From a virus: a stretch of 64,000 nucleotides of DNA. The position numbers and the translations under genes are program-made. Location: positions 96,001-160,000 of the IMG/VR virus record IMGVR_UViG_3300027668_002455; one strand, 5' to 3'. Below, piece by piece: positions 3,001-20,736 of the stretch (positions are counted from its first letter, which is position 1; every line of letters starts with the position of its first letter). The notes under the pieces were generated by a model. It made no database searches. It saw nothing but the letters and a program-made list of their open reading frames with translations, and was not told where the DNA came from.

Positions 3001-3549
3001 ATGATACAATTCTATAAACCGAATAAGTCTGTAACGGGAAATGCCTGTTCTTTCTGGCTAAACAGAGATGGCTCTATTATGTCATCCATGATCAAACAAG
3101 ACTCTTGGAACGAACAAAAAAGAGTAGGCTCATTTAGCAAAAATAAAGACAACCCCCAAAAAAGAGTAATTACTAAACTCAGTCGAGTTGAGGTCGCCGG
3201 AATCATTGATTCTATTGAGACTAATCGAGAGTTCTCTGCATACCATCGAAGCCAAAAGCAGGTTCTCCAAATTAAATTTTGCCCCTATATGAGGGAGGGT
3301 AAACAAGTCGGGTTTTCCTTTTCTATTAATAAACAGGATGTAGAAGACTCGACTAATAAAAGTTCTTTTGTAATTGGCTTTTATTTTCCAGAAGCCCGCT
3401 TGCTTCGTCACGATCTCGAAAGTTTTCTAGACAAAACGCTGAGTACGCAGGATTATACCCAAGAGCAAAAGCCGAGTGCACCCAAGGAGACTAAAGAGCC
3501 CAGCCAAGAAGACTCGGGAAGTCCGTTTGAAAATAGTGAAATTTTTTAA
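3001..3549 (+). CDS. Putative ssDNA-binding protein, Whirly/PC4-like fold with acidic C-terminal tail
   Basis: KRVITKLSRVEVAGII...FSAYH...QIKFCP...GFSFSINKQ...FVIGFYFPEARLL parallels the Whirly pattern. Ends in DSGSPFENSEIF. Lies in the replication region. Confidence 0.55.
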   Translation: MIQFYKPNKSVTGNACSFWLNRDGSIMSSMIKQDSWNEQKRVGSFSKNKDNPQKRVITKLSRVEVAGIIDSIETNREFSAYHRSQKQVLQIKFCPYMREGKQVGFSFSINKQDVEDSTNKSSFVIGFYFPEARLLRHDLESFLDKTLSTQDYTQEQKPSAPKETKEPSQEDSGSPFENSEIF

Positions 3550-5470: not shown

Positions 5471-6655
5471 ATGCACCTTGTTGAAACATATGCTTTAAAC
5501 TGTGGCCTTAAAATAGATAAGCCATATATTATCGAAAAATTTTTTCCATTAGACACGGAAAGATTTATCACGTTGCACCCGAACAGTAAATACCCCTCAA
5601 AATGCTACGACTACTGGCAGGACGTGGTGGATATCTTGCTTCCGGTGTTGGAAAAAGAAGACATTAAAATTCTACAGATAGGCGTTAAAGAGGATATACC
5701 CCTTAGGGGGTGCTTGCACTCTCAGGGGCAAGCAAATCTAAATCAAACTGCTTATTTTTTATCGAAATGCATGCTTCATCTTGGGGTAGATAGCTTTCCT
5801 GCCCATGTGGCATCTGGATTTGATAAAAAAATAGTGTGCCTTTACTCTAATAATTATGCTGCCAACTGCAGCCCGTACTGGAGCCGACAAGAAGACATAG
5901 CTCTCTTTGAACCTCTTCGAGAAAATGGAGAAAAACCTTCTTTTTCTGCCGAGGAAGACCCTAAGAGCATAAACGAATTTAACCCAGAAGATATTACTGA
6001 AGCGGTTTTAAATCTTTTAAATATTAAAAGTAATAAAAATTTAAAAACGATCAGAAAGGGGTCCTTTTATAATCATTCGATAGTAGAACTGGTACCGGAC
6101 TGCGTAGCTAATATAAGCTCAATGAATATTGAGTCTATCATTGTAAGGATGGATTTAGAATTTAATGAGGAGGCGTTAGCCACCCAGCTTTCGATGGGAA
6201 AATGCTCCATCATTACCACAAAACCCATAAAATTTGAGATTTTAAATCAATTTAAAGAAAATATAAAAGAATTTGTATATTTTGTAGAAGAGGATCATGA
6301 TCCGACATTTATATCAGAGGTGGTAAAAATTGGTTTCCCAGTTATTTTGATGAGCGAGATGGAGGAGAAAAAGATCGAAGAAGCTAAAATTCATTATATG
6401 GATTTTGGTGTCATTCAAATCCCGCCCACGGCTCTTGAGGAAGACATTCAAGAAATAAAAAACCAAAAAGATAAAAATCTTTTTTATAAATCCAAAAGAG
6501 TATTAATTAGCAAGGGAAAAACTTATAAATCTGAAGCCGCATGGAAAAAGGGAGTCCCCAGTGATCCAAATGACCCCTCTCCGCTGCCTATTATTGATAG
6601 CCCTGAATTCTGGGAAGCTCTGGATGAATATTACATTCTAGCAAAGAAAACTTGA
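5471..6655 (+). CDS. GT9 (heptosyltransferase-like) C-terminal domain plus an unknown domain
   Basis: HLVETY linker, ITLHPNSKYPSKCY, ILQIG, LNQTAYFL, HLGVDSFPAHVASGFDKKIVCLY (GT9 DS..H.A motif). Confidence 0.8.
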   Translation: MHLVETYALNCGLKIDKPYIIEKFFPLDTERFITLHPNSKYPSKCYDYWQDVVDILLPVLEKEDIKILQIGVKEDIPLRGCLHSQGQANLNQTAYFLSKCMLHLGVDSFPAHVASGFDKKIVCLYSNNYAANCSPYWSRQEDIALFEPLRENGEKPSFSAEEDPKSINEFNPEDITEAVLNLLNIKSNKNLKTIRKGSFYNHSIVELVPDCVANISSMNIESIIVRMDLEFNEEALATQLSMGKCSIITTKPIKFEILNQFKENIKEFVYFVEEDHDPTFISEVVKIGFPVILMSEMEEKKIEEAKIHYMDFGVIQIPPTALEEDIQEIKNQKDKNLFYKSKRVLISKGKTYKSEAAWKKGVPSDPNDPSPLPIIDSPEFWEALDEYYILAKKT

Positions 6656-6680: not shown

Positions 6681-6686
6681 TTGTAT

Positions 6687-7421
6687 ATGGTAGCTAAGAA
6701 AAAATCAAAGTGTACTCCTCCGAAACTTATTACACGCAATGAGTATGGCTTAATTGAAGACGTTGATTACATTTTCAATGAGGATGGTTTTATCGATTGG
6801 CGCTCGATGCTAAAAGACAAATGGCTTTATCCCAATCCAAGCAAAAAACTTAATACAAGTGAAGTTTCTAAGCTTCAAGACCGTGACCTTTGCATCCTTT
6901 TAGGCGGCATAAAAGAACTTGCCCAGATTCGTGGCTTCACGAATGTAAGATATTCCCTCCATAGCCCCTCCTCGGATTATGTGGTTGCTTCTTGTGAAAT
7001 AACTTGGATTCCAAATTATGAGACCGAAGGTAGCGACGTCGTATTTACATCCGTAGGAGATGCTGGACCACATAATACTCACGGCTTTGGTCAGAGTTTC
7101 CTTGGGCCTATCGCGGAGAACAGAGCTTTTGTTCGCTGCGTTCGTAACTTTCTAAAAATTAATGTTGTCGCCCAAGACGAGATTGCAGTTAATCCAACGG
7201 CCCCACAAAGAGCCCAAGCGGAGACTACAACTATAGACATTTCTGATCCAAAAGCCCTTCTGTCTAAGCTTATGGGTGAAAAAAATATCAATTTCACCCA
7301 AATAAAAACAAAACTAGAAAAAGAAGATTACCCTAACGCAGAAGACTTTTCCTCAGTAAGTGATATTCCCAATATCAAGATATTTGAATTATTAGATAGA
7401 ATCCAAAAAATTAAGATTTAG
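6687..7421 (+). CDS. Putative single-strand annealing protein (Rad52/Sak-like)
   Basis: VVASCEITW...FTSVGDA...IAENRAFVRCVRNFLKINVVAQDEI matches the AE.RA..R..R helix of Rad52-superfamily annealases. ATG 6687 preferred over TTG 6681. Confidence 0.55.
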   Translation: MVAKKKSKCTPPKLITRNEYGLIEDVDYIFNEDGFIDWRSMLKDKWLYPNPSKKLNTSEVSKLQDRDLCILLGGIKELAQIRGFTNVRYSLHSPSSDYVVASCEITWIPNYETEGSDVVFTSVGDAGPHNTHGFGQSFLGPIAENRAFVRCVRNFLKINVVAQDEIAVNPTAPQRAQAETTTIDISDPKALLSKLMGEKNINFTQIKTKLEKEDYPNAEDFSSVSDIPNIKIFELLDRIQKIKI

Positions 7422-7746
7422 GAAAGTCTTCCTTTGTCTTCATTATAAAATCATTTAATTCATTTAATTTTTCTGGCCTACCCATAGCATTTTCGGTGAT
7501 GGCTTCGAACTGCTTTGTGATGGGCCAGTGCTCAATAATCTGTGACTGTCTCATGTCCACCGCGCGCTCATCGGCTATTTCAGTTTGAACCCCTCCGTCT
7601 TCGCTGTGTGCTATAAGCTCTTCGTAAGATGGTTTGGGGATACTGTTTTCTGGAGACCACTCCAAAGTACCATAGTCATTATTTTTTATAGACCATTGAT
7701 ATTCGCTATATTTATGTGCTAGGATGTCTTCTATATCGGGATTCAT
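7411..7746 (-). CDS. Tail fibre-associated small protein (XkdW/fibre assembly-like)
   Basis: LEW.PENSIPKPSYEEL and WPITKQFEA...KEDFPK, typical of small genes directly downstream of fibre genes. Confidence 0.55.
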   Translation of the reverse strand: MNPDIEDILAHKYSEYQWSIKNNDYGTLEWSPENSIPKPSYEELIAHSEDGGVQTEIADERAVDMRQSQIIEHWPITKQFEAITENAMGRPEKLNELNDFIMKTKEDFPKS

Positions 7747-7747
7747 T

Positions 7748-9475
7748 TTACCACCTTGATCCTGTTGGGTGAGGTTTAATTTCTGATATCAGAAACGATG
7801 AAACAGCCGCATCACCTAGGTAGCCCGATGCGTAAGGATATATATCTGGCCATGACTGCATTCTATTTATATATAAAATTGGACTATAACCCCGCGTCTT
7901 TCTTCGCCCTACCCTTATTTTATAAGTGTGAAGGTCCGTGTCTTCAGCCCTATGAAAGTACTTCATATTAAAAACGTCCGAAGCATTATTAGTAAAAATG
8001 GTTTGGTTCCACGCCCTTATCGGGTTTGCCTCGCTATCTCTAAAAATAGATACAGTAGCATTGCAAATTTCTTTAGCACTTAAATTAAGTTCGGTATCTA
8101 GTATTAAATAATTTCCAATTTCCTGTGCCGTATAATTTATATTAAAAATTTCCAACCCGTCACTTTGAGTAGGATTGGGTGGGACAATTTCTGAAGTTAA
8201 ATATCTATCGGTAAAATTAATACCAGAAATATTTAAACTTTTCATGGTCATTGCGCCTGACACACTCCCAGTTATTCTTAGATCAGAAACAAATATACCA
8301 TCACCTGTAGCCGTAAGAAGCCCAAACACTTCAAGACCAGAAATATTAACTTGTCCCGAAAAAGTTTTTAAGCCAGAAATGACTTGATCTCCGGTAGTCA
8401 TAACTACCTGAGTAGGATCTACATTAATAACCTGCTTTGAGTCGCCACTCCAAATAAACTCATTTAACCCAACACCACCTGTAATATACCCACTTACAGA
8501 ATTCGCTGCGCCGCTTTTTATATTGGAACCCGCGAAACCAAAAGATACCTTATCAGGGGTAATCCCATTGTTCATAACAGTAAACACAGCTAAATCATCC
8601 CCGCTTACGCCCGTGAATCCAATTGTGTCATCATCTACGGCAACACCTAAATTTATTGTTTCCCCTAAAAATATGCGTCCACTTTGCATATTGTAACCGG
8701 CTAGAACGTGATCTCCTGAAACAGTATGAAATTTACCAGTTAAGCCGACAGAGGCGTTGAAATCAACGAATCCAGCACCAGTATGCATAAATATGCCCGT
8801 ATCTACATTAACAGCGTCTTCTGTTATATGAACCCCTGTTCCCTCACCGACATCGAATCTTCTACTAAGAGTTACATCACCACCGCCTAGTAACCCAGAC
8901 CCCGCTATCATTAAAACACCACCGGGGTTATACTGACCAGTGGTTCCGGTGGGGTCAATTTGACGCTGAAAGACATTTCCATTTCCGTCAACAGCCAAGA
9001 AGCCAGTCAGGATATTATTGACGGGGGGATTTAAATATACTAATCCCGCGTGACTTAGTGCTGGGGTTGCGCCCTGAATAGATCCTGAAATACCTAGGTC
9101 GCCAGTAATAGTTAAATTTCCTGTAATTACAACCTCTTCACAGTTGTGAATGCACGGGGCGCTTGAAACCACCTCAAAAGGATAATAAGTTCCCGTACTG
9201 CGCGTATTCATGACCTCGAGAGTCATAAATGCTTCGGGGCTAATATCCGGAAGAGTGCCCGTTACCACACAATAGCCACCATTATGCCCAAACCCTGTAA
9301 CAAATGGAATATTATAAGAGCATCCGCCACAAGTGTCAGACGCTCTGACCCCTGTGGCCGAACACACTCCAGATCCCGTAACCAAAAATTTTCCCCCCGT
9401 GGGGACAATGGTCGGGCTTATTCCTGATACAAAAATATCAGGCTCGTACGTAAAATGAAAACCACCATGTGCCAT
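7748..9475 (-). CDS. Tail fibre protein with N-terminal IPT/Ig-like domain
   Basis: VSGISPTIVPTGGKFLVTGSG (IPT-like start), GSGLLGGGD and TTGDQVISGLKTFSG fibre motifs, C-terminal beta-sandwich tip. Confidence 0.7.
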   Translation of the reverse strand: MAHGGFHFTYEPDIFVSGISPTIVPTGGKFLVTGSGVCSATGVRASDTCGGCSYNIPFVTGFGHNGGYCVVTGTLPDISPEAFMTLEVMNTRSTGTYYPFEVVSSAPCIHNCEEVVITGNLTITGDLGISGSIQGATPALSHAGLVYLNPPVNNILTGFLAVDGNGNVFQRQIDPTGTTGQYNPGGVLMIAGSGLLGGGDVTLSRRFDVGEGTGVHITEDAVNVDTGIFMHTGAGFVDFNASVGLTGKFHTVSGDHVLAGYNMQSGRIFLGETINLGVAVDDDTIGFTGVSGDDLAVFTVMNNGITPDKVSFGFAGSNIKSGAANSVSGYITGGVGLNEFIWSGDSKQVINVDPTQVVMTTGDQVISGLKTFSGQVNISGLEVFGLLTATGDGIFVSDLRITGSVSGAMTMKSLNISGINFTDRYLTSEIVPPNPTQSDGLEIFNINYTAQEIGNYLILDTELNLSAKEICNATVSIFRDSEANPIRAWNQTIFTNNASDVFNMKYFHRAEDTDLHTYKIRVGRRKTRGYSPILYINRMQSWPDIYPYASGYLGDAAVSSFLISEIKPHPTGSRW

Positions 9476-9476
9476 A

Positions 9477-12400
9477 TTAAGAAGCCCCCGTTATACAAAT
9501 ACCTGAATCATACATTAATTCTATGCTTACTGACCCAAAATTTCTAAGTTCTTCACAAGGATAAATTTTAAAAAGCTGAACTTGGCTTCCCACGTCGATA
9601 TATCCTCCATCACCTGTGTAAACGCTGTTAAAGTGCCAGCCGGTTATAGTTTCAGTCGTTTGAGTCATGGCATTGGGGTCATGACTAGGTATCACAGTTG
9701 TTTGGGGAATAAATACGCCGCTATCCATATGACACTCGGCACTTGCATCGGAGTCAGCAATAAATTTAATCCCTGTAACATTGAGTGCATTTCGACCACT
9801 AATATGTAACTGCACACCCCCGTCGCCTCGAGTTGGGGTAACCCCTATCATAACTGGAATTCTACCCGATATTGTAGTTTGGTCTCCTGTAATTTTACTT
9901 ACATTTTGAAGAGCATACGTTTCGCGAAGCTGGATGAAATCCTGTCTTAATAAATCTATATCCACACCAGACTCACTATTGTAGTCGTCAAAGGTATATC
10001 CCAATTCATTATTAAATATTTCATGACGTGAAATTAAGAACGGATTACCGGTGCCTACCACCTGATCATTAAACGTTCCTGTGATAACTGTATATCCAGT
10101 CACATAACCTGCGCTTGCGTCAATGTGAGTTTTATCAAGTTCAAATTTACCAAAGTAAAAATACTTACTATAATTACCACTATTGTGTCTATCTATACCT
10201 ATTTCACTTATGGGCGGATAGGTATTATTTCTCATTGCGTGTGAATCACCAGTGTTCGCTACAAATTCTACCACTCCGTCTCCCGCAGTATAAGGTTGTA
10301 AACTATTCCCCGTAAACCCTAATAATGGAACTAGGTGAGAGGCATTAATTCCAGTTATCCTAAATTGACAGCCAACTTGAGTTTTAACAGTTTCAATACC
10401 AGAAATTGTTGGCATGGGGGTAAATTCCATTGGGGCTTTTATGGGTTGATCTGTATCATTCCATCCACTTATAATTGGTTTTCCCTTTACTAATTCATGA
10501 GGAACCTTTGCCTCAATACCTGTATTATCTATGTAAGTTATATCCATTCCTGATACGTAACGGGTTTGAACATAAGAACTACTCGATATGTCTTCACCTT
10601 GGTAAGCGGGGAACAGAACTATATCAACATCTGGTTCAAAGTTATTACCGGAGAAACTTACGGTTTCACCATAAACTCCAGTAAGAGGAATAAAGCTTCG
10701 AATACCACTAGTCAATATATTCAAGAGCCCTGTTGACATTTGCATTCCTGTTTGAGAAAATAACTGGATAGGGGTATAGGGTGCGCCGCTACTAGGAATA
10801 GAAAAGTTTATTCCCGTTGTGCCTACCCCTGTAAATGGAAGCAGCACCCTATCCTCAGAAAATCCTGAAAGATATAATTTTTGTGCAAGATCTAAAGATT
10901 GGCCATAAACCGAAACCACTTCGTTTGGATACCCAGAAATAGGTGTAAAACGAATGATCTTCATTTGTGGGGCTTCAATTTCAAAAGTACACCCCGTAAC
11001 TGGTGCAAAACCAGTTCCCACGATTGTAATGGGTCCGCTTACTGATTCTGCAGGGACAGTCACGTGTAGTGAAGTTTGATCAGACCTGAACCAGTCTTCT
11101 GCTGGGGTTCTATTGTCACCTACTAATACTCCAGTTATATCGAAGAAATACAACCCCTCTACAGTTAGGCTGTCTCCCCATGCTAATATCTTGCCTCCAG
11201 TGGGACAGCAATGAGAGTCAAAGAAGTAATGGGCATAATGAGGACCGTCTGCATGACACACAAGTTCATTTCGATGATGACAGGATACGAACGGGCGCGG
11301 TGCAACAAATACGCCGGTATATTTTGCATATCCAGTTTCTAGATTGAAACCATCCATTAGACCCTCATAACCAATAGCATCAAGTGAACCACCACCCAGA
11401 GTTAAGGGGCCGCTTTGAATATCAAGGCCGCTCCCGAGAGTAACACCAGCTATCCCTGTCGAGACATACGCTGACGTGCTATACTCTAGAGCTATACCAC
11501 TATAATTAATCATCCCCGCAAAATATCCATTAACATAAGCTTTGACATCTCTATCCTGCCTTGTGAAAGCTACGTGATTCCAATCGCCAGAGTTCCAATA
11601 CCCAAAATATGACCCTGAACTTTGAGTAGAGTTAGTTGTAAAGGCAAATAGTCTATCAGTGGGAATGCCGGGACTAAACTCACCACTACTCCCAGTGGTA
11701 TAATCTGGCCTTAGTCCGGTTATTCTACCCCCGTTAAAAAGATCTATACCAAGTGCTTGTTCGCCGTCGCCGCCTGAAAGGAAGAAGTTAAAGCCACTAC
11801 CTGTTGTTCCGAAGCTTAAAAGAGTTTGTCGTTTAATTCCGTTATCAACTGGGGCTCCGGTTAGAGTGGTAGAATAGGCCGTGCCGCTCGGTTTAATCCA
11901 CATCTCTGCGGTAAAGTCTTCAACTCCCAATGTTATATTTTGAGCAACAAGGGTATTTGCGCGGTTATAAGTCCTACTGCCAGTAGGAAATCTTAGGGCG
12001 TAAGTTCCAAACTTTCCTTCTCCAGTAGCAAATTCAATATTATTTGCAGGAGAACTCACCGAAGTAGTTGTAAACACGCGGGCGTATTGACTATCTCCCG
12101 TTATACCGTCAGCAATTATATTGCTCGGATCGCTCGGGATTTCAAAATTTAACATGGCATCCGTATAAACACCGCTGGTGATGGCACTTGCCGGCTTTGT
12201 GTATTTCCCATTATAGGGGGAAAATACTGCTCTTTTTGTTACATTGATTTCATCAATATACACTCTTTCACCAAGATCACTATTTAGCCAACCACTGTCG
12301 TAAGTTCCCGTTTTGGGAAGACTAGTATACTTTGATCCGCTTGAAATTATAAATTGGTCAACCTGCCCATGATAACTAACCAGTGGGCACTCCTTGAAGA

Positions 12401-15400
12401 TCAGTTGTTTAATAAACACTTCGTTGCCGTAGCCGGGGTTCATGTGGGACCCACCGAAACCCCCAGCTATCTTATCTATCGACGCGGCCACTTCACCGAT
12501 ATCAGGTTGCCCGTGCACCGTATTTCCCCACTGCGGACAGTAAAAATTAATCTTATCACCCTTGGTGACCCCTGTAATTATAGATGTTATAATTTGTTCT
12601 ACAAAACACGCGTTGGTGCCGTAAGCGGACCTGTTTTTTTCATCTACTCTGTGTGAAAAATTAGGAATTCCATAATCTGCCTCTGTTCCCAGTGCTCCGT
12701 GCTTATAGGTGTGGTGCGCGGCACCAGCGGCGCGGTTCATCCGAAAGCCGATTGGGAAGCTCTGTGCGTTTTCATATGTTCCCGTGGTGCCAGTTGAGCC
12801 ATATCTATTATAGATCCAGTTGGTGGTAATATTTGAGACCTGCCCTATCCACGGATACACGGGCTGCCTCTGATGTGTGGTGTGCATCTGATTGCCGCCC
12901 CATCTTGCGACTACCGTCGCCTGACACTCAACTGCAGCACCCTCTTGGACGGTGTACTCGTAACCTCCCGAGGTTGTGTCCATAAAACTGTTAGAAAAAC
13001 TGGAGGTGATGTTCTCCCGCTCCGGGGATAAAAAGTTTATATCAACCAGACCACTTGTAGTGGAATATCTTGGGAAGAACTTACAAGGCTGTGACTCCCA
13101 CAAGAGCCCTGTGTCATCTACTTTATGATAAGATAGGTGGCCCGAGACACCGCCCCCTAAAAACACCTGTTGACCCGTTGCGTCTATCACTGGCATACCA
13201 GTGTAAATATTCCTAGTGTTATGGTTTGCAGCAAAATCTTCAGTTTGCAAAGCACCTGCTGGCTCCCCATTAATATAAGTAAAGAAGTCAGTATTTTCGC
13301 GACACAGTGCAACGTGGTTCCATTCCCCCTTTTTAAAATGAACATCGTTATAAGGCGGTATTAAGTCAAACGAAAGATTCGGATTTTCGTAATCAAAACA
13401 CAGCCTAAATCTATTAGTATAATTATTTAATATAAAAGCTAAGCCATTTCCAGTAGCAAAATTATTATTACTCTGACCAAGTACCCATAGTGTTTGCATG
13501 CCGTTGCCCCCAACTCCGAGACCTTGAGTCGCGCCACTTGGCTTCATCCAGCACTCTACAGTGAAATCACCAGTTCCATAATTAAAATTACTTCCCGTGG
13601 TTTGTATATAGTCTATACCTGTTACCAGTAGACTTTGGGAACCACATTTTGGATTATCATTTACAAAAAGTGGAAAACCACCAGTGGTTATTGTTTGAGA
13701 GTATTTACCGCTATCTACAAAATTACCTTCTAATCCAAGTTGTAAATCAGTTCTAATGAGTCTGCCGGGAACATCTGGGGAGCCAGTAATGCTCGGAGAA
13801 AAACACTGATTATATCCAGTATTAAATGAATCAAAGTTTCCTGTGCAAAGACCACCGAAATAAAATTTTGTTCTTCCTTGTGGAAGATGCGGATCAATAA
13901 GCCCTGTTGGAATTATGTCTCCATATCTACAGCCATTATAATGAAAGCTATAACCCGTTACATCTTTAACGACAGCACAGTGATTGTATCCGCTTTGTGG
14001 AAACCACCCTGTCCATAAGTATTTACTTTCCAACTGTATGCCTGAGAGATTTACGTATGGCTTAATAGTGTTAGTAATTCCTGCAGTGCCGCTTTCACGG
14101 GTATACCCAACGTGGAAAAATGAATTTCCACTTACCCCCGTGTATTCACCGCTAAACCCAAAGAGTGCAATATCTTTACTGTGGTAAGGGTTGTGTTCTA
14201 AACCCGTGTGATCAATTGCAGGATTTATCCAAAACTCTACAGACCACGAATCTTCCTTGCTTAGATCTAACCCCGATGAAGCCTCGGTTTGTAAATAGCC
14301 GCCTCGGAACCTAAGGCTCCCACTACTATTTACTTCAAAGTTTTGTTCTCCACCTGTAGGGAAAAATGCTCCCGTAGCTTCGGATTCAATCCCAGAAAAA
14401 CCATAAAAAATAGCATTTAAAGCAGTTTGCGGATTCCAAATATTATGAGGAACCTCTGTAAATTCATAGACTACACCGCTCGAAACAATGTTTTGATCAT
14501 ACAGAGTATATCCGGTAGAGCCAGTATATAAAGCATGCCCATAACACTGATTAGCGTCACAAGATGTTAGTTCTGGGTCTGGCAATATATAAAAACCACT
14601 TATGCCCTGTTCCGTTGTAACCCCACTAAACGTTTGCACCGGAGGTTGGTCACACCCATCAGGGAAACTGGCGTGTCCTTCGATACAATGGTTTGGAACA
14701 CCGCATGTTCCCTCTTCGGGGGGAAGAAATATTGGGCCCCTCGGCGCGGGCGGCTGGCCCGGTTTCGGCGATCCTTGCGTCCCGATTGGTTGGCCATTCC
14801 ACGGGCCATTTACGGGGGGAAGTAAAATTGGCCCAGTCTTAGGATACCCAAATGATGTGACAGAGGGTATCCTCACGGTTATAAAAGGCGGCGAGGAGGG
14901 GTTTAGGCCGGGGTTTCCAAGGCCCACGGGGAGTTGCTGTTGATAAGACTCTGGCGGCCAGCACAACGGAAACTGTACGGGTGCACTAATTACTCCAGTT
15001 CCATTAGATCCACCAACCGTTGTAGTTGTAAAGGGGTTTTGTGCGGTTGAACAGGACACTATTCTACCGCCCATCAAGATCCGACCTCCAACTGTGGGGT
15101 CCTGTGTAAGCCCCTCTGGACCCGCTGAACCCACACGTGGAACAGTCATTGATTCGCCGGGTCTAAAAAGTACACTCCCTAGACTCCGTGAACCACCCCG
15201 AGAAACGCCCTCTGCACTCACCGTGCTGCCGGGGTTTTGGGGCTCTGGCTGGTTATTTCTTGGTAGTGGTGGCTGCAGTCCCGGCGACTCATGAGTACCC
15301 GGAAAATTAGGGTCAATTGTCTGAATCGCAGGACCACCTCCCGGTGGGGGGTAACTAGAATGAGTGCCCGGTCTGCTACCACCGCAGTTGGAAGTGTTGC

Positions 15401-18158
15401 TGGTCCCCCTTGGATTAGCCGTCTGCGTGCGTATCGAAAAAGCTTGTGCATTAGTACGCTCAAGTGGTGGATTTGGTACGGACGACTGTCTTTGCATGGT
15501 ATTCGGGCGAGGCTCAACCTGCGGAGCTAGAGAGATACGCCTATAACCAAGTGGAGCATTTTCTACCTCGGTTCTGCTACGCGCATATCTAGGCGCACCG
15601 TTTTCCCAAATTGTCGCCTGTGTCCAAAGCCCCCCCATAGAATACCATTTTATCGCATCGAAGATACCGATACTCCCACGGAGATTAACGCGGTTGCCCG
15701 CGTTATTCCTATAAGGTCGCTGAACTGAAGATATTCTGTGTTCTCCAAGAGTGCTAGATGTTATGGGTACTGAGGGGATAGTCGAGCATATCTGCGGTCC
15801 CTGCGATGGGGGATAGGGCCACGTACCGGGCATTTCCCGCACCACTGATTGTTGACCATATAAATTAGTTTGCTCGGAGTTAACTAGTGGCCCAAACGCG
15901 GGCGGCGTTGGAACAGGTTTCTCACTAGACTCTGACTCCCACGGGGGAGGAGATTCCCCACCGGGACCCGGAGGTTGATTACCACCACCGCCCCCTTGAT
16001 CATCACAGTCTTGAGAGTAAGGGTCACAGGGCGGAACCGGTTCGGCGTACGGGGGTTCGTTGGGCGGGTTTCCCGTCGGACAAATCGGTGGCTGTGGAGG
16101 GCCACCCGGCGATGTTGGTGGATGACCAGCGGAAGCTGCCGCCATTTGTACACACGGGTTATTATCATATCTTCCAGAAGCTGCCGTTCTATCAATATTG
16201 TTAAAATTAGTATTTCCAGCCAGCCCCGATGATAACACTTGCGTGGTAAGAAAACAATTAATCAGATCAGGTTGAAAATTAGGAGAATTGACATCCAAAT
16301 ATTCCCAGTGACCGCTAAAATAAAACAAGAACGCCTGCTCACAACCACTTAGGTAGTAAAGCGGAGAATCCCCCCTATCCTTCTTCGCTTGATAATCTTC
16401 CATGCAGGTTTGAACATTAGGGCCTGCTGTTGGATACCAAACACTTATAGGTGCAGGGTCGATCCCTGTGATTTCACACCCCGAAATTCCGCTCATGTAC
16501 CAATTCTGCACCGCGCTATTAACTGGGCGATAACCTAAATTACTTGAAACATTCGGCATCATCATTGAGTCAGATGAACCCTCATTGACAAGTACCCCGC
16601 TACTGTATGTAACCCCCGTCATTATGCCGCTCTCTAGAAGGCCAGTTATAGGGATATTAATATACCCACTTGGTCGTACCACAATACCCGAAATATAACC
16701 TGTAATTACGCCCGTGCCTGAAGCTAATCCGGTTACTACATAACCACTAAACCCCGTATCTAAAACAGTATTGAAACCAGTAACACCGCTTATTGCACCG
16801 CTGATCCCACTTGATAAATATCCGGTCTGGGTCATCATTCGCGGCTCGGACCCCACAGAAAAAACCTGTTCGGAACAGTTGCCCCAACACCCTGTGGTCT
16901 TATATACTCCAGAGTCATAGTTGCCTGTCTCTAAAAGATAGTGGGGCCAGAGACCTATACTATTATTTGTGACACCCGCTTGCATGCGTGTTGTCTCTGG
17001 GGCAAAAGGAGAAACATAATATTTATTATCAGAAATATAATAACCTGTTAATTCTCCATCAATATTTTCATTTTGTTTAATTCTAATGGGCCCAGTTCTA
17101 GCTGTGGCAGGGGTGTATCCTGTTAAGGCAAAAATCTCTGCGCCCGACTTAGGAAGAAACAGTCCAGTTGCTCCCTCTCCAGCAAACGCTACTAGATAAC
17201 CAGCTTCATCATCATAAGTTCCAGTAGTATTTAAAAATTGTCCCTGTGTCCAGTGCATCAATTCGGGTAAAAAATACCTACCCGATATCGTCATTGCTCT
17301 TCCTGAAAAACCTATACCATTGTTACAATCATCCTCTGGAAACCAAGTGCATCCAGTAATTTTTATACTCGGTTTAATTTTTCCTACAGAAGGTTGGCTT
17401 TTTAAATTTCCGCTTGAAAGAATCTGAACGTGACCGTAAAAATTTCCAGATGGTAACGTAAAACTAATTCCTGTATTATTAATTTTTTCAAAGGGTAGAT
17501 AAACAGTAACATCGCCCGTAGTATTAGCATAAACACCCGTTACAGATTGATATATAAAAATATTATTAGTGTTGTCTCCTGTAAATCCAACCCCAGTTAC
17601 CCCCGTCGGTTCTTGCCAATAACCTGATTCATTTTGAGTAAAACCAGTGGTACTCAATAAGGCTAAACCGCTAGCAGATAAAAGGCCATCTCCCACTACA
17701 TAAGCTGTGTCCCCCGATATACCTGAAAGTGGACTCAGATAATTAATCATCGGTATAGCAGTGAAACGTTCTCCACTAATTCCGGAGGCATACCCAGTAA
17801 CGTTTCTGGATGTAGAGATTACCGTGATGGGGGCCGGATAACCATATTTAACCCATTGATCTTTTGGCTGTAATCCGGTTATGGTGTCAATAGAGGGAAC
17901 GGTAAATTGTATTGTATTTTTGTTTACAACTTCATACTCAGCCGAAGTTCCACTTACTAGAATATTTAATCCACCATAGACAGCATTCCCAGTTGGGTCA
18001 CCCGAAGCTCCCGAAGCTAGTCCAGTAGGTGCCCATCCTGTTATGCCACTAGTATAAACTCCGCCAACCCTAACATCATTAATCTTAAAGAATTTACTAC
18101 CCGAGCCAGAGATTGTAACTTGGCTTTTGAGATTTCCAGTTGGAGGAAGAATTACCAT
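9477..18158 (-). CDS. Giant virion adhesin/fibre (2893 aa): IPT/TIG repeats, three LamG domains, Pro-rich insert
   Basis: IPT repeats (FTPISGYPNEVVSVYG, FIPLTGVYGETVSFSG). LamG motifs WSVEFWINP, FTVECWMKP/WNHVALCR, FTAEMWIKP/WNHVAFTR. Confidence 0.75.
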   Translation of the reverse strand: MVILPPTGNLKSQVTISGSGSKFFKINDVRVGGVYTSGITGWAPTGLASGASGDPTGNAVYGGLNILVSGTSAEYEVVNKNTIQFTVPSIDTITGLQPKDQWVKYGYPAPITVISTSRNVTGYASGISGERFTAIPMINYLSPLSGISGDTAYVVGDGLLSASGLALLSTTGFTQNESGYWQEPTGVTGVGFTGDNTNNIFIYQSVTGVYANTTGDVTVYLPFEKINNTGISFTLPSGNFYGHVQILSSGNLKSQPSVGKIKPSIKITGCTWFPEDDCNNGIGFSGRAMTISGRYFLPELMHWTQGQFLNTTGTYDDEAGYLVAFAGEGATGLFLPKSGAEIFALTGYTPATARTGPIRIKQNENIDGELTGYYISDNKYYVSPFAPETTRMQAGVTNNSIGLWPHYLLETGNYDSGVYKTTGCWGNCSEQVFSVGSEPRMMTQTGYLSSGISGAISGVTGFNTVLDTGFSGYVVTGLASGTGVITGYISGIVVRPSGYINIPITGLLESGIMTGVTYSSGVLVNEGSSDSMMMPNVSSNLGYRPVNSAVQNWYMSGISGCEITGIDPAPISVWYPTAGPNVQTCMEDYQAKKDRGDSPLYYLSGCEQAFLFYFSGHWEYLDVNSPNFQPDLINCFLTTQVLSSGLAGNTNFNNIDRTAASGRYDNNPCVQMAAASAGHPPTSPGGPPQPPICPTGNPPNEPPYAEPVPPCDPYSQDCDDQGGGGGNQPPGPGGESPPPWESESSEKPVPTPPAFGPLVNSEQTNLYGQQSVVREMPGTWPYPPSQGPQICSTIPSVPITSSTLGEHRISSVQRPYRNNAGNRVNLRGSIGIFDAIKWYSMGGLWTQATIWENGAPRYARSRTEVENAPLGYRRISLAPQVEPRPNTMQRQSSVPNPPLERTNAQAFSIRTQTANPRGTSNTSNCGGSRPGTHSSYPPPGGGPAIQTIDPNFPGTHESPGLQPPLPRNNQPEPQNPGSTVSAEGVSRGGSRSLGSVLFRPGESMTVPRVGSAGPEGLTQDPTVGGRILMGGRIVSCSTAQNPFTTTTVGGSNGTGVISAPVQFPLCWPPESYQQQLPVGLGNPGLNPSSPPFITVRIPSVTSFGYPKTGPILLPPVNGPWNGQPIGTQGSPKPGQPPAPRGPIFLPPEEGTCGVPNHCIEGHASFPDGCDQPPVQTFSGVTTEQGISGFYILPDPELTSCDANQCYGHALYTGSTGYTLYDQNIVSSGVVYEFTEVPHNIWNPQTALNAIFYGFSGIESEATGAFFPTGGEQNFEVNSSGSLRFRGGYLQTEASSGLDLSKEDSWSVEFWINPAIDHTGLEHNPYHSKDIALFGFSGEYTGVSGNSFFHVGYTRESGTAGITNTIKPYVNLSGIQLESKYLWTGWFPQSGYNHCAVVKDVTGYSFHYNGCRYGDIIPTGLIDPHLPQGRTKFYFGGLCTGNFDSFNTGYNQCFSPSITGSPDVPGRLIRTDLQLGLEGNFVDSGKYSQTITTGGFPLFVNDNPKCGSQSLLVTGIDYIQTTGSNFNYGTGDFTVECWMKPSGATQGLGVGGNGMQTLWVLGQSNNNFATGNGLAFILNNYTNRFRLCFDYENPNLSFDLIPPYNDVHFKKGEWNHVALCRENTDFFTYINGEPAGALQTEDFAANHNTRNIYTGMPVIDATGQQVFLGGGVSGHLSYHKVDDTGLLWESQPCKFFPRYSTTSGLVDINFLSPERENITSSFSNSFMDTTSGGYEYTVQEGAAVECQATVVARWGGNQMHTTHQRQPVYPWIGQVSNITTNWIYNRYGSTGTTGTYENAQSFPIGFRMNRAAGAAHHTYKHGALGTEADYGIPNFSHRVDEKNRSAYGTNACFVEQIITSIITGVTKGDKINFYCPQWGNTVHGQPDIGEVAASIDKIAGGFGGSHMNPGYGNEVFIKQLIFKECPLVSYHGQVDQFIISSGSKYTSLPKTGTYDSGWLNSDLGERVYIDEINVTKRAVFSPYNGKYTKPASAITSGVYTDAMLNFEIPSDPSNIIADGITGDSQYARVFTTTSVSSPANNIEFATGEGKFGTYALRFPTGSRTYNRANTLVAQNITLGVEDFTAEMWIKPSGTAYSTTLTGAPVDNGIKRQTLLSFGTTGSGFNFFLSGGDGEQALGIDLFNGGRITGLRPDYTTGSSGEFSPGIPTDRLFAFTTNSTQSSGSYFGYWNSGDWNHVAFTRQDRDVKAYVNGYFAGMINYSGIALEYSTSAYVSTGIAGVTLGSGLDIQSGPLTLGGGSLDAIGYEGLMDGFNLETGYAKYTGVFVAPRPFVSCHHRNELVCHADGPHYAHYFFDSHCCPTGGKILAWGDSLTVEGLYFFDITGVLVGDNRTPAEDWFRSDQTSLHVTVPAESVSGPITIVGTGFAPVTGCTFEIEAPQMKIIRFTPISGYPNEVVSVYGQSLDLAQKLYLSGFSEDRVLLPFTGVGTTGINFSIPSSGAPYTPIQLFSQTGMQMSTGLLNILTSGIRSFIPLTGVYGETVSFSGNNFEPDVDIVLFPAYQGEDISSSSYVQTRYVSGMDITYIDNTGIEAKVPHELVKGKPIISGWNDTDQPIKAPMEFTPMPTISGIETVKTQVGCQFRITGINASHLVPLLGFTGNSLQPYTAGDGVVEFVANTGDSHAMRNNTYPPISEIGIDRHNSGNYSKYFYFGKFELDKTHIDASAGYVTGYTVITGTFNDQVVGTGNPFLISRHEIFNNELGYTFDDYNSESGVDIDLLRQDFIQLRETYALQNVSKITGDQTTISGRIPVMIGVTPTRGDGGVQLHISGRNALNVTGIKFIADSDASAECHMDSGVFIPQTTVIPSHDPNAMTQTTETITGWHFNSVYTGDGGYIDVGSQVQLFKIYPCEELRNFGSVSIELMYDSGICITGAS

Positions 18159-18161
18159 TTT

Positions 18162-19319
18162 TTAGAATCCTCCATCTTGTACTGTGAATATGCCGGGCAT
18201 GCCGTCTCCGTAGTTTGTGGCGGCTCCCAATTTTGCATCACCACCGGGGGACTTTAAGCCCACTCGACAGGTAATGGCCTCATCCGGTATGGTCGTAACA
18301 ATTGTGGTTGGGGTATGTGTCGTAAAGTGAGTGTACTCTCTTTTTTCATCTCCGAAAGTTACTTCTGTTACATTTTCTAAAGCGGCTCCTGAAATAGTTA
18401 TAGTTGCCCCCACTACTCCAGCAGTCGGAGTAAAGGAAGTAATTGCCGGGGCATTCTGATATTTTTCTTGGCTTAATGAAAGGGTGGTGGTAATTTTTTC
18501 ACCTGCTGTTACATTTATGTTATGTGCTTTTAAGGCTCCTCGGATTTTATAAGACTGCCCCGTAATGCCATTTGAATTACTAAAACCAACAAGCAATTCT
18601 CCCTCGGCTATTCCACTAAAAAATTTATCATTTAAATAATTTTGTTGCTCTGTATCACTAGTGAAGTCACCTACCCCTTCGTCCCACGAAGGTAAGGCAT
18701 AGCCATTGATGCTGGCGTCAATAGTTTTCTTATTAAATCGCAACTCTCTAGGTACTGCGTCTCCGACTGTATAAACTGGTTGCACATTACTTGAGAAAGA
18801 AAAAGAAACACTAGTGGAAGCTTTGACCTGTTCGGTTTCTCCATCCTCGTGAGGGGTTACTCCGGAGATTTGTGTTAATTTACAATCGGTGTAAGTTAAG
18901 ATATCTGCGTCTAGAGTTTCTCGAGTGGGGGCAAACCTCCCCCTAAGGCCTCCATAAAAAGCAATAGTAGCACTAATCATAGCAGGGCCAAATGGAGGGA
19001 CCTCAAAAGAGTAGCTATTTAGAACCCCGCTTGAAAAAGAAAGTCCAGCAAAATTTCCAGATATGAGATTATCAGACTCCATGAAGTTGGCCAGAAAATC
19101 TTCCCCTGTTAGATAATAACTTAAGGAAAGGTTTCCGTCGATTCCCCCTCCAGCTAGATAACCAAAGCTACTTCGATTAGGTAGGAGGTCAATTGCTTTT
19201 AGGTTATTAGTTAAAGAAATTGCTAAATTTTCGACATAGATTGGAACTGCTGCACCCCAAGACCCCCCGGCATAGCTCGCTAGCTCTAATTTGGCATTAT
19301 TATAATTATAATAAGACAT
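18162..19319 (-). CDS. Tail-tube-like protein (duplicated fold) with C-terminal IPT domain
   Basis: LSLSYYL, GVLNSYSFEV and SVSFSFSSNVQPVYTVG echo 45583..46773. C-terminal APAITSFTPTAGVVGATITISG is IPT-like. Confidence 0.55.
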   Translation of the reverse strand: MSYYNYNNAKLELASYAGGSWGAAVPIYVENLAISLTNNLKAIDLLPNRSSFGYLAGGGIDGNLSLSYYLTGEDFLANFMESDNLISGNFAGLSFSSGVLNSYSFEVPPFGPAMISATIAFYGGLRGRFAPTRETLDADILTYTDCKLTQISGVTPHEDGETEQVKASTSVSFSFSSNVQPVYTVGDAVPRELRFNKKTIDASINGYALPSWDEGVGDFTSDTEQQNYLNDKFFSGIAEGELLVGFSNSNGITGQSYKIRGALKAHNINVTAGEKITTTLSLSQEKYQNAPAITSFTPTAGVVGATITISGAALENVTEVTFGDEKREYTHFTTHTPTTIVTTIPDEAITCRVGLKSPGGDAKLGAATNYGDGMPGIFTVQDGGF

Positions 19320-19357
19320 TCTTCCTTTTAACCTTTTACCTTAATAAATTACACATT

Positions 19358-20140
19358 TTACACCAAAAGTTCTTCTTTTAAATTCTTATATTTCGTTAAC
19401 TCCTTTTTTTGCCGATCTACGTCCCAAGGTCTCGAAACTGTTCCATTTCTTACGTTATAGTAGCAAGCGATGACACTATCTACGGGTACCGTTTTAATTC
19501 CTGAAGACTTAAACTCATCCCATAAGAACATATCTTCGTGAGCATCCATTCCTTCATAAAATAACTGCCCATCATCTGGGATTATATCTGCATGCATTAA
19601 GGTGGTCCACGGGCCATATTTGCCTGTTTTTATGGAATCTGTAGCTTTTCTTAAATTTTTTTCACCGTTTTTACAGTGATACCAGCTTCCAACTAGGAAT
19701 CCCTCATTAAGCTCTCGGGCTATCTCGGGCAGAGCAAGGGCTCTTTCTTGGGTAAAAAAATCATCTGCATCTGCTAAAAATACAGCTGGATAATCTTCTT
19801 TATACCCTAAAGTCTTCTCAATTATTCTATTTTTGGCTCCCGCCACTGTTTGTGCCTTTTTAAATTTAAATAGATTAAATTCTTTTGCAGAGCTATATTG
19901 TGAAAAAAAATTAACTATTTTATAAGTATCATCATCACTTTCATCATCAGCAAAGTGCATGACCCAATCCAGATTTTTCATAGCATTCTCAATAGAATTA
20001 AGAACAATTGGCAACCAATCCGAGGCATTTCTCGCGGAAATCACTACTTGACAACCTCTTTTTTCCCATAAATTTTTATTTTTAATTTTCTGGGCTTTTT
20101 GTTGGAAAATTTTCTGCCTCTCTGCCACACTCCGGATCAT
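19358..20140 (-). CDS. GT2-family glycosyltransferase
   Basis: VVISARN, FADDESDD, AKNR, FLADADD (DxD), AHEDMFLW. Start moved to ATG 20140 (MIRSVAE). Confidence 0.88.
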   Translation of the reverse strand: MIRSVAERQKIFQQKAQKIKNKNLWEKRGCQVVISARNASDWLPIVLNSIENAMKNLDWVMHFADDESDDDTYKIVNFFSQYSSAKEFNLFKFKKAQTVAGAKNRIIEKTLGYKEDYPAVFLADADDFFTQERALALPEIARELNEGFLVGSWYHCKNGEKNLRKATDSIKTGKYGPWTTLMHADIIPDDGQLFYEGMDAHEDMFLWDEFKSSGIKTVPVDSVIACYYNVRNGTVSRPWDVDRQKKELTKYKNLKEELLV

Positions 20141-20178
20141 TATTATAATAATAATTTTTCGAAAAATGACTAGAAAAA

Positions 20179-20184
20179 GTGTAA
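20179..20184 (+). promoter_or_regulatory. GTGTAA putative late-promoter motif upstream of the tail-tip operon
   Basis: Same hexamer lies about 10-30 nt upstream of many structural gene starts (see findings). Confidence 0.6.
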
Positions 20185-20205
20185 AACATAGAAGGGATAA
20201 GGTAT

Positions 20206-20736
20206 ATGGCATCAATATATGACACTATAGCTCGGTGGTACACAGAAAATACTTATGTAAAAAACCACATTGTAGAATGGCCAGAGAATTCAAATGATTA
20301 CTGGTACTCTCTAGAAGATAGTAATAAGAGCAACGAGCCGAGCATCGGATCGCCAGTTTGGGGCGGATTCGGGACTACGGACATCCTTGGTATAACAAAG
20401 CCACAATTCTTTTGGCCCTGCTCCTATAACCAAAGTACGTCAATTTCACCTCGTGTTTTAACCATTCGATATGGTGACGGATATACCCAAAGAATTCCTG
20501 ATGGTATTAATAACAATCTATTAAATTTAGAGTTGTCTTTTGATGGGAGAGATGAACAAGAAACTTTAGCTATTATCCATTTTTTAAACGTACGTCGAGC
20601 CTCAGAGGCTTTTCTTTATACTCCACCAGCGCCCTTTGCAACGGAAAGGCTCTTCGTATGCAAAAAAATAACTTCAGCAGTAATCTTTCGCGATAATTTT
20701 AATATAAAAGTTTCTTTTGAAGAAGTTCCGGATTAG
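20206..20736 (+). CDS. Distal tail protein, lambda gpM-like
   Basis: PRVLTIRYGDGYTQRIPDGINN...IIHFL...AFLYTPP...VSFEEV. Confidence 0.9.
   Translation: MASIYDTIARWYTENTYVKNHIVEWPENSNDYWYSLEDSNKSNEPSIGSPVWGGFGTTDILGITKPQFFWPCSYNQSTSISPRVLTIRYGDGYTQRIPDGINNNLLNLELSFDGRDEQETLAIIHFLNVRRASEAFLYTPPAPFATERLFVCKKITSAVIFRDNFNIKVSFEEVPD

What the first reader, a model, noticed from the sequence alone, without database searches (positions are those of the whole stretch)
7748..20140. Candidate virion glycan shield: Ser/Thr-Gly saturated surface proteins plus phage glycosyltransferases
Seen: in the 575-aa fibre I count by hand about 37 [ST]G dipeptides among about 76 Gly, versus about 10 for the reverse G[ST]. 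The 2893-aa protein is visibly saturated too (e.g. TQTGYLSSGISGAISGVTGFNTVLDTGFSGYVVTGLASGTGVITGYISG). The motif also dots the tube paralogues and neck proteins, and is not conspicuous in DnaE or the tape measure. The window encodes GT4, split GT9, GT2 and an epimerase. Established: Ser-Gly is an O-glycosylation sequon in proteoglycans, and mycobacteriophage Che8 glycosylates its virion with its own GTs. Inference: [ST]G is a selected sequon for dense O-glycosylation of exposed virion proteins.
Basis: partly seen in the sequence, partly recalled or inferred. Interest (0 to 1): 0.8.

Follow-up and report, generated by a model that had tools for sequence, protein, structure and literature searches.

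The report
Ser/Thr-Gly signature on phage fibres
Two tail-fibre proteins of an uncultured marine phage, like the fibres of many related phages, put a serine or threonine before about half of their glycines; the protein folds do not need this pattern, so it may mark sugar-attachment sites, but no chemistry shows that yet.

Summary
The 575-aa fibre has 37 [ST]G against 10 G[ST] (observed/expected 2.8, z 7.8). The 2893-aa fibre has 164 against 52 (O/E 2.5, z 14.9). All other window ORFs pooled give O/E 1.03. The bias sits at the amino-acid level (mixed codons), is directional, and is specific to Ser/Thr: Asp-Gly and Asn-Gly are depleted. Sites are 89% conserved by position in 18 homologues.

The fold does not require it. 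The same virion's gpJ-like protein has four Laminin_G_3 domains at O/E about 1 or less, and 140 unrelated Laminin_G_3 proteins range 0.54-1.6.

In 85 related phage loci the variable fibre cassette is bimodal: 72 of 110 proteins exceed O/E 2, 26 fall below 0.7 (one has 0 sites against 18 expected), and few are normal.

The link to the named glycosyltransferases is circumstantial. The GT4-like gene and the split GT9 are clade-wide core genes between DnaE and a possible recombinase, and they persist in phages with no fibre cassette. GT2 heads the fibre operon, but only in this subclade.

I rate an O-linked modification sequon the best single reading (about 0.4), with a purely structural loop grammar close behind (about 0.33). 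This scan had already noted the same signal in at least eight other genomes.

The parts
7748..9475 (-). 575-aa distal fibre (P0001). It has a TIG-like N-terminus, an [ST]G-rich shaft (aa 101-426: 27 sites against 9.1 expected) and a C-terminal tip domain (aa 427-575) that is not enriched.
   Evidence: 26 homologues
9477..18158 (-). 2893-aa giant fibre protein (P0002). [ST]G O/E is 2-4 in almost every 100-aa block outside aa 701-1200. It contains Laminin_G_3/ConA-like domains.
14559..16058 (-). Pro-rich, GC-rich insert of the giant protein (aa 701-1200). [ST]G is depleted (4 against 11 expected, P 0.006), with 15 G[ST].
12999..14561 (-). Laminin-G-like domain pair of the giant protein (aa 1200-1720, P0028), used for the same-fold control and the AlphaFold model.
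18162..19319 (-). 385-aa IPT/TIG-domain protein in the same operon. It is not enriched here (O/E 0.88), but its shorter orthologues in cassette-less relatives reach O/E about 3.
19358..20215 (-). GT2-family glycosyltransferase, the first gene of the minus-strand fibre operon. Among the fetched loci it occurs only in this subclade.
7411..7746 (-). 111-aa last gene of the fibre operon (phrog_9114, function unknown).
2072..2977 (+). NAD-dependent sugar epimerase/dehydratase, GalE-like and below equivalog cut-offs. Found in 13 of the fetched loci, the subclade that carries P0001-type fibres.
3549..5468 (+). 639-aa GT4-like GT-B enzyme with an inserted CxxC...CxxC zinc ribbon. Its C-terminal end resembles the first ~55 positions of GT9 heptosyltransferases. 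It is a clade core gene, 61-97% identical in 224 IMG/VR relatives.
5471..6655 (+). 394-aa protein with the C-terminal Rossmann half of a GT9 heptosyltransferase at its N-terminus, plus about 200 aa of unknown function.
6681..7421 (+). 246-aa clade core protein that abuts the fibre cassette. The only lead is Sak/Rad52-like single-strand annealing proteins.
23523..32153 (+). 2876-aa gpJ-like tail-tip protein with four Laminin_G_3 domains, used as the internal same-fold control. O/E is 0.25-1.1 over aa 1-1600 and 2.0-2.9 in parts of the C-terminal third.

Best explanation
[ST]G is a selected, lineage-specific surface-loop motif of the distal fibre proteins of this phage clade. Most probably it marks Ser/Thr residues that receive an O-linked modification, with glycosylation by phage enzymes the leading candidate. 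Shown: the motif is overlaid on several unrelated folds, is conserved by position with free Ser/Thr exchange, and is avoided in sibling fibre proteins and in the Pro-rich insert. Inferred: a phage transferase recognises a hydroxyl residue followed by Gly at a strand-loop junction, in the way autotransporter heptosyltransferases act on loops of beta-helical adhesins. Also inferred: the clade-wide GT4-like/split-GT9 pair would start the glycan, and variable neighbouring enzymes (GT2 and the epimerase here; GT8, extra GT9 and an Anp1-like GT in relatives) would elaborate it.
For: The enrichment is real, directional and at the amino-acid level. Half of all Gly in 70 enriched fibres follow Ser/Thr (T 3.15x, S 2.42x), while every other residue, including Asp (0.64) and Asn (0.48), is depleted before Gly. 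The fold does not require it: gpJ-like Laminin_G_3 domains in the same virion sit at O/E 1 or below, and 140 unrelated Laminin_G_3 proteins range 0.54-1.6, with only the closest kin above 1.8. Sites replace the family's D/N-Gly, or arise where the family has no Gly at all. The motif occurs in at least 7 BLAST-distinct fibre clusters, including propeller-like repeats and collagen-like (G-A-T/G-S-T)n. The cassette distribution is bimodal, with avoidance as extreme as 0 observed against 18 expected. In the model, 14 of 18 sites are in coil or at strand edges, and the contexts are heterogeneous rather than one stereotyped turn. The tip domain is spared. GT2 heads the fibre operon, and accessory GT genes accumulate at the fibre junction in relatives. 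Precedent for dense Ser heptosylation of beta-rich adhesins: PMC4358343.
Against: There is no chemical evidence of any modification. The GT4-like/GT9 pair lies on the DnaE strand, between DnaE and a possible recombinase, and persists in about 20 loci with no fibre cassette. It could act on DNA, on host glycans or on something else. No variation in GT presence was available, so co-occurrence could not be tested. The hydrophobic flanks, 89% positional conservation and 6-residue spacing in parts of the shaft also fit a purely structural hairpin motif. Equally exposed gpJ Laminin_G domains are not enriched. L049 has enriched fibres but no GT2 next to them. No known transferase uses this sequon. 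Cyanophage S-CBS4 has a distant GT homologue in its head module and shows no enrichment.
Confidence: 0.4

Rival explanations
1. A purely structural grammar. Hydrophobic-[ST]-Gly-hydrophobic would be the preferred strand-to-loop junction (a hairpin or beta-bulge cap) of a pool of all-beta fibre modules that these phages exchange among themselves. It would be inherited and kept because it helps folding or trimer assembly, with no modification involved.
For: The flanks are hydrophobic (I/V before, I/V/L/Y after). Sites are 89% conserved by position, against 68% for other Ser/Thr. The commonest spacing in the 575-aa fibre is 6 residues, with hexad runs at aa 118-130 and 361-379 and a BppL_N-like motif. 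When Ser/Thr is lost, Val/Ile often replaces it. Sites sit next to strands. The disordered Pro-rich insert, which has no turns, lacks the motif.
Against: The same fold in the same virion, and in 140 unrelated proteins, does without it. Classic turn formers Asp/Asn before Gly are depleted rather than co-enriched. The motif spans unrelated folds, including a collagen-like triple helix. Near-total avoidance in sibling proteins (0 against 18 expected) has no structural rationale. The secondary-structure contexts of the sites are heterogeneous.
Confidence: 0.33
2. A chemical-stability or other non-glycan role. Ser/Thr could replace Asn/Asp before Gly to avoid deamidation and isoaspartate formation in long-lived extracellular fibres. 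Or the hydroxyl could carry a different modification, such as phosphate, sulfate or an acyl group.
For: Asn-Gly and Asp-Gly are depleted (O/E 0.48 and 0.64) while Ser/Thr-Gly are enriched. At family-conserved Gly turns, D/N is replaced by S/T (aa 1255 and 1513). Unchecked first-reader notes report sulfotransferase-like genes upstream in this genome.
Against: Avoiding deamidation should apply to every virion protein, yet gpJ, the TIG protein and the head-side proteins are normal. It does not explain new [ST]G at positions without a family Gly, nor the avoidance in sibling proteins.
Confidence: 0.12
3. The neighbouring glycosyltransferases have nothing to do with the fibres. The GT4-like/split-GT9 pair would modify phage DNA or replication proteins, and the accessory GTs would remodel host surface glycans (receptor masking). 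The [ST]G bias would then be an independent feature.
For: The gene order DnaE, epimerase, p182, GT4-like, GT9-like, p246 (Sak/Rad52-like lead) is fixed in 80+ loci, on the strand opposite the fibres, and is kept where fibres are absent. The nearest atlas clusters include 'GT4-conflict' families.
Against: GT2 is co-oriented with the fibre genes and lies first in their operon. Variable GT islands sit exactly at the fibre junction. Even in cassette-less relatives the tail-tip proteins (TIG about 3, gpL and gpJ about 1.6-2) carry the clade-wide bias. This rival concerns the enzymes and leaves the bias itself unexplained.
Confidence: 0.15

Closest known systems
Mycobacteriophage virion O-glycosylation by phage-encoded glycosyltransferases (Che8, Corndog, Myrna; Freeman et al. 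2023, cited from my own knowledge; that paper was not read here)
   Same: A tailed phage that carries its own glycosyltransferases near structural genes. The proposed outcome is the same: a glycan coat on the virion.
   Different: In those phages the acceptors are Ser/Thr-rich C-terminal tails of capsid and tail-tube subunits. Here the candidates are about 200 dispersed [ST]G dipeptides inside folded fibre domains. Capsid-side proteins are not enriched, and no chemistry exists.
Bacterial autotransporter heptosyltransferases TibC/Aah acting on TibA, AIDA-I and Ag43 (PMC4358343)
   Same: Cytoplasmic GT-B enzymes related to LPS heptosyltransferases that add many sugars to Ser in the loops of a repetitive all-beta adhesin. 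Here there is a GT9-like enzyme, beta-rich adhesin-like fibres and sites at strand-loop junctions. A four-Cys metal-binding insert exists, but in the neighbouring GT4-like protein.
   Different: No sequence match to TibC at E up to 10; the best solved match is WaaF (1PSW, E 4e-4). The GT9 is split over two genes. The N-terminal beta-barrel, the hairpin thumb and the dodecamer assembly are not demonstrable. The phage substrates are not beta-helical autotransporters.
Ser-Gly xylosylation sites of eukaryotic proteoglycans
   Same: A hydroxyl residue followed by Gly serves as a minimal acceptor.
   Different: Proteoglycan sites use Ser, with acidic neighbours, in disordered regions. Here Thr is as frequent as Ser, the flanks are hydrophobic, the sites lie in folded domains, and the disordered Pro-rich insert is depleted.
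Thr-in-Y-position collagen-like proteins whose Thr is glycosylated (Bacillus BclA GPT repeats; Riftia cuticle collagen), from my own knowledge
   Same: Related phages carry a fibre with long (G-A-T/G-S-T)n runs, so every Thr precedes a Gly (L050, L052, L060, L067).
   Different: That protein is not in this window. Glycosylation of it is untested.
Beta-hairpin loops ending in Ser/Thr-Gly (type I turn plus G1 bulge, for example ubiquitin T9-G10), from my own knowledge and note e1-5923207
   Same: Ser/Thr-Gly at a strand-loop junction with hydrophobic strand residues on both sides.
   Different: That motif normally tolerates Asp/Asn before Gly and is not enriched 2.5-4-fold across whole multi-domain proteins. 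Here Asp/Asn-Gly are depleted.

Membership tests
Phage-encoded virion glycosylation (mycobacteriophage type) | The phage genome encodes glycosyltransferases | tested here: met
   GT2 PF00535 E 3.7e-13. GT9 PF01075 E 1e-7 to 1e-6. GT4-like phrog_2170 E 2.3e-10.
Phage-encoded virion glycosylation (mycobacteriophage type) | Acceptors are Ser/Thr-rich C-terminal extensions of capsid or tail-tube subunits | tested here: not met
   The enrichment is confined to two fibre proteins. Head-side ORFs pool to O/E 1.25 and all other ORFs to 1.03.
Phage-encoded virion glycosylation (mycobacteriophage type) | Glycan demonstrated on virion proteins | not testable with these tools
   Needs glycoproteomics or glycan staining of virions. 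The phage is uncultured.
BAHT family (TibC/Aah) | Sequence or profile similarity to TibC/Aah | tested here: not met
   A profile of the GT9-like protein against all PDB sequences hits only WaaF (1PSW, E 4e-4) and no TibC at E up to 10. The GT4-like profile finds no GT at all.
BAHT family (TibC/Aah) | Four-Cys iron-finger insert, beta-hairpin thumb, dodecameric ring | tested here: inconclusive
   A CxxC...CxxC zinc-ribbon insert exists, but in the GT4-like protein (aa 270-296). The oligomeric state cannot be tested. Family features taken from PMC4358343.
CAZy GT9 heptosyltransferase (WaaC/WaaF-like) | Two Rossmann-like halves of a GT-B fold matching GT9 models along their whole length | tested here: inconclusive
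   Only model positions 2-56 (end of ORF 3549-5468, E 0.002-0.13) and 242-338 (start of ORF 5471-6655, E 3e-5 to 9e-3) match. All scores are far below the curated cut-offs. The two pieces lie in different reading frames.
Proteoglycan-type Ser-Gly sequon | Ser (not Thr) followed by Gly, with acidic flanks, in disordered regions | tested here: not met
   Thr-Gly (88) is at least as common as Ser-Gly (76). The flanks are I/V/L/Y. The disordered Pro-rich insert is depleted.
Laminin_G_3 / ConA-like lectin domains (for aa ~1240-1700 of the giant fibre) | Pfam PF13385 match above cut-off and a jelly-roll LG fold | tested here: met
   PF13385 E 1e-15, 58.6 bits against a 27.6-bit cut-off. The AlphaFold model matches laminin/neurexin LG pairs, Foldseek E 2e-9.
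Generic beta-turn/G1-bulge motif as the sole cause | Other turn formers (Asp, Asn) also enriched before Gly, and the same bias in the same fold elsewhere | tested here: not met
   D-Gly 0.64 and N-Gly 0.48. Laminin_G_3 baseline median 1.18, maximum among non-kin about 1.6. gpJ Laminin_G domains are at 1.1 or below.

The most novel reading that the evidence does not exclude
An abundant clade of uncultured marine and freshwater siphophages coats its distal tail fibres with a phage-made glycan, using a minimal, fold-independent [ST]-Gly sequon. Target fibres are saturated with the sequon and non-target fibre proteins are purged of it. A conserved GT4-like/split-GT9 pair would start the glycan, and swappable accessory transferases would vary it together with the fibre cassette, much as O-antigen loci vary.
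Probability: 0.3. Interest if true: 0.85.

Novelty: new variant of a known kind. Interest (0 to 1): 0.6.

Why it matters
If the motif marks glycosylation sites, it would be the first defined sequon for virion glycosylation in phages. It would sit on the receptor-binding apparatus of a widespread aquatic phage clade. Candidate sites could then be read directly from metagenomes, by both enrichment and avoidance. That bears on host recognition, on virion survival in water and on evasion of enzymes or grazers. If the motif is only structural, it is still a strong lineage-specific design rule for beta-rich fibres that current fold families do not predict. A single mass-spectrometry experiment on one expressed fibre fragment would distinguish the two.

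Tried and rejected
1. DNA-level or codon-pair motif: rejected, because the sites use 20 or more codon pairs in proportion to overall usage.
2. A composition artefact: rejected by shuffles.
3. A property of the Laminin_G_3 fold: rejected.
4. A single repeat family spread by duplication: rejected. The giant protein has no internal BLAST repeats, and at least 7 BLAST-distinct clusters share the bias.
5. AlphaFold monomer of the 575-aa fibre: uninformative for the shaft (pLDDT 43).
7. The window's own genome: not held.
8. Cultured relatives: none for the fibres. The GT4-like protein has only 21-23% identical hits in Synechococcus phages S-CBS4 and S-EIVl, and S-CBS4 shows no [ST]G bias.
9. Co-loss of Ser/Thr and Gly as a unit: about 2-fold above independence in cluster 13. 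I do not rely on it, because misalignment gives the same signal.
10. The ORF (c25) between the two GT9 halves in 13 relatives as a homing endonuclease: rejected, since it hits the Anp1 mannosyltransferase family.
11. Literature searches found no report of an [ST]G sequon in phages.
12. Co-occurrence with GT presence could not be tested. Every one of the 85 loci has the GT pair, 80 of them by design of the search.
Full report
**What the window is.** The window comes from a large uncultured siphovirus-like phage. On the plus strand it carries a DnaE fragment, an epimerase, a 182-aa protein, a 639-aa GT4-like protein, a 394-aa GT9-like protein and a 246-aa protein. On the minus strand lies an operon of GT2, a TIG-domain protein, a 2893-aa protein, a 575-aa protein and a 111-aa protein. 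After that come lambda-like tail-tip genes (gpM, gpL, gpK/JAB, gpI and a 2876-aa gpJ-like protein), a 3667-aa tape measure and head-side genes. No whole genome is held for the window. Neither fibre has a relative among 50,697 deposited phage genomes. The homologues found come from marine and other metagenomes.

**The observation.**
- The 575-aa protein has 76 Gly, 37 [ST]G and 10 G[ST]. Expected is 13.3, O/E 2.77, z 7.8.
- The 2893-aa protein has 164 against 52. Expected is 65, O/E 2.52, z 14.9.
- All other window ORFs pooled give 199 observed against 193.6 expected, with 194 G[ST]. The bias is therefore confined to these two proteins.
- The suggested spill-over to tube and neck proteins is marginal: three ORFs at z 2.3-2.7, and a pooled O/E of 1.25 for the 43-64 kb block.
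- Codons at the sites are diverse, so this is an amino-acid-level signal.
- Only Ser and Thr are favoured before Gly (T 2.7-3.0x, S 2.4-2.6x). Asp, Asn and every other residue are under-represented. The usual flanks are hydrophobic.

**Distribution within the two proteins.** In the giant protein the bias is uniform, O/E 2-4 per 100 residues. The exception is a Pro-rich, GC-rich insert at aa 701-1200, with 4 sites against 11 expected (P 0.006). In the 575-aa fibre the C-terminal tip domain (aa 427-575) is not enriched. It is also the only part that AlphaFold models with confidence.

**Conservation.** Eighteen homologues of the 575-aa fibre, down to 39% identity, keep O/E 2.0-3.2. At the reference sites, [ST]G is retained in 89% of cells, with free Ser/Thr exchange. 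Other Ser/Thr stay Ser/Thr in only 68%.

**The clade.** A scan of IMG/VR with the fibre alignment gave five loci. A scan with the GT4-like alignment found 224 relatives, of which 80 loci were kept. All share one layout:
- DnaE, (epimerase), p182, GT4-like, (an Anp1-like GT in 13 loci), GT9-like, p246;
- then a variable fibre cassette on the opposite strand;
- then the TIG protein, (GT2), and gpM-gpJ.

About 20 loci have no cassette at all yet keep the GT4-like gene, the GT9-like gene and p246. These genes are therefore clade core genes and are not tied to the fibres. The epimerase occurs in 13 loci and GT2 in 5, and both are restricted to the subclade with P0001-type fibres. In cassette-less relatives the tail-tip proteins themselves carry a milder bias (TIG about 3, gpL and gpJ about 1.6-2).

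**The cassette is bimodal.** Of 110 distinct cassette proteins with at least 5 sites expected, 72 have O/E above 2, 26 are below 0.7, and only 12 lie between 0.7 and 2.
- The enriched proteins fall into at least seven BLAST-distinct clusters. These include propeller-like repeats and a collagen-like protein with long (G-A-T/G-S-T)n runs.
- The depleted proteins are as extreme as the enriched ones. Cluster 35 has 0 sites against 18.1 expected, 0 against 13.5 and 3 against 18.9. Cluster 45 has 1 against 9.
- Across 70 enriched fibres, 50% of all Gly follow Ser/Thr. In non-enriched cassette proteins the figure is 10%, and both Ser and Thr are under-represented before Gly.

**Does the fold require it? 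No.** The gpJ-like protein of the same virion has four Laminin_G_3 domains (E 3e-48), but its O/E over aa 1-1600 is 0.25-1.1. The Laminin-G region of the giant fibre (aa 1200-1720) runs at 2.4-4.3 per 100-aa block. An exhaustive HMMER search with that region against 1.84 billion representative proteins gave 150 Laminin_G_3 proteins. Their median O/E is 1.18 and the 5-95% range is 0.80-1.62. The minimum is 0.54 among the 140 with at least 6 sites expected. Only the seven closest relatives exceed 1.8. Column mapping shows two kinds of site. Some replace the family's Asp/Asn-Gly with Ser/Thr-Gly (aa 1255, 1513). Many lie where the family has no Gly at all.

**Where the sites sit.** An AlphaFold model of the region has mean pLDDT 62, and Foldseek places it with laminin/neurexin LG pairs at E 2e-9. 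Of the 18 sites in confident parts, 14 are in coil or at strand edges and 4 are inside strands. The contexts vary, so they do not look like one stereotyped turn.

**The enzymes.**
- GT2 (PF00535, E 3.7e-13) is the first gene of the fibre operon.
- The epimerase is GalE-like but below equivalog cut-offs.
- The 639-aa protein is a divergent GT-B/GT4-like enzyme with an inserted zinc ribbon.
- Its last ~100 residues weakly match positions 2-56 of five LPS heptosyltransferase models. The next ORF matches positions 242-338 of the same models, and WaaF (1PSW) at E 4e-4. There is no match to TibC.
- p246 has only a Sak/Rad52-like lead. That lead, plus the shared strand with DnaE, allows a DNA-related role for the core pair.
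- Relatives L016 and L033 carry a GT8 and two further GT9 genes exactly at the fibre junction.
- Cyanophage S-CBS4 has a 23%-identical homologue of the GT4-like enzyme in its head module and shows no [ST]G bias.

**Weighing the readings.** Several results favour a selected recognition motif, most simply an O-linked modification site:
- independence from fold;
- restriction to Ser/Thr with Asp/Asn excluded;
- directionality;
- new sites at positions without a family Gly;
- a spared tip domain;
- near-total avoidance in sibling proteins.

Other features fit a structural strand-loop motif equally well: hydrophobic flanks, strict positional conservation and hexad spacing in parts of the shaft. The two readings are not exclusive, because TibC/Aah-type enzymes act on loops of beta-rich adhesins (PMC4358343). 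Nothing here links the motif to a particular enzyme, and no chemistry exists. I therefore give the modification reading 0.4 and the purely structural reading 0.33, with the remainder to other roles.

**Earlier notes of this scan.** The same signal has been noted in at least eight other genomes, with similarly split verdicts. Unchecked notes on this genome report a large glycan-synthesis gene set upstream of the window. I could not verify them. I found no published description of an [ST]G sequon in phages.

Noticed in passing
window 56849-58039 (-): A 396-aa tubulin/FtsZ-family protein (PF00091 E 9e-11; Tubulin_2 E 4.5e-6) in a siphovirus-like phage. It may be a PhuZ/TubZ-type phage cytoskeleton or partition protein.
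   Followed up: no
window 14559-16058 (-), aa 701-1200 of the giant fibre: A Pro-rich (83 Pro in 500 aa), GC-rich (about 50% against about 40%) insert, probably disordered. Relative P0030 lacks everything before aa 1188. It is depleted in [ST]G, which is the opposite of what mucin-like O-glycosylated linkers would suggest.
   Followed up: partly
L016:17441-19465, L033:17458-19335, L036:14060-17266, L028:14081-16129: Fibre-cassette proteins (cluster 35) that are rich in Ser/Thr and Gly yet almost free of [ST]G (0 against 18, 0 against 13.5, 3 against 19, 4 against 13 expected). L028 contains three near-identical tandem repeats of about 100 aa.
   Followed up: partly
L052:15286-16680, L050:15286-16707, L060:15296-16645, L067:15462-16811: A collagen-like fibre protein with long (Gly-Ala-Thr / Gly-Ser-Thr)n runs and almost no Pro. 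Thr in the Y position is the arrangement that is glycosylated in Bacillus BclA and Riftia collagen (from my own knowledge).
   Followed up: no
L016:14042-17448 and L033:14036-17469: An accessory island inserted between p246 and the fibre cassette: one unknown gene, a GT8 (E 4e-6) and two GT9 genes (E 1.6e-14 and 1.2e-9).
   Followed up: partly
L004:13987-14685 and 12 other loci (cluster 25): A 213-232-aa ORF that sits exactly between the two halves of the split GT9. It matches the Anp1 mannosyltransferase family (PF03452, E 2e-9) and is not a homing endonuclease.
   Followed up: partly
window 23523-32153 (+), aa 1601-1800 and 2201-2600: The distal third of the gpJ-like protein shows a moderate local [ST]G excess (O/E 2.0-2.9), although its N-terminal Laminin_G/SPRY part has none. 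gpJ and gpL of cassette-less relatives have O/E 1.6-2.1.
   Followed up: partly
window 3549-5468 (+), aa 268-303: A CxxC...CxxC zinc ribbon inserted into the GT-B fold of the GT4-like enzyme. It is invariant in six orthologues. The protein is unusually conserved for a phage accessory enzyme (61-97% identity over 224 relatives).
   Followed up: partly
L086/L087 (Synechococcus phage S-CBS4, NC_016766.1: 9916-12282): A cultured cyanosiphovirus carries a glycosyltransferase, a galactosyltransferase and a methyltransferase between its portal and head-protease genes. That position suggests virion modification, but none of its structural proteins shows an [ST]G bias.
   Followed up: partly
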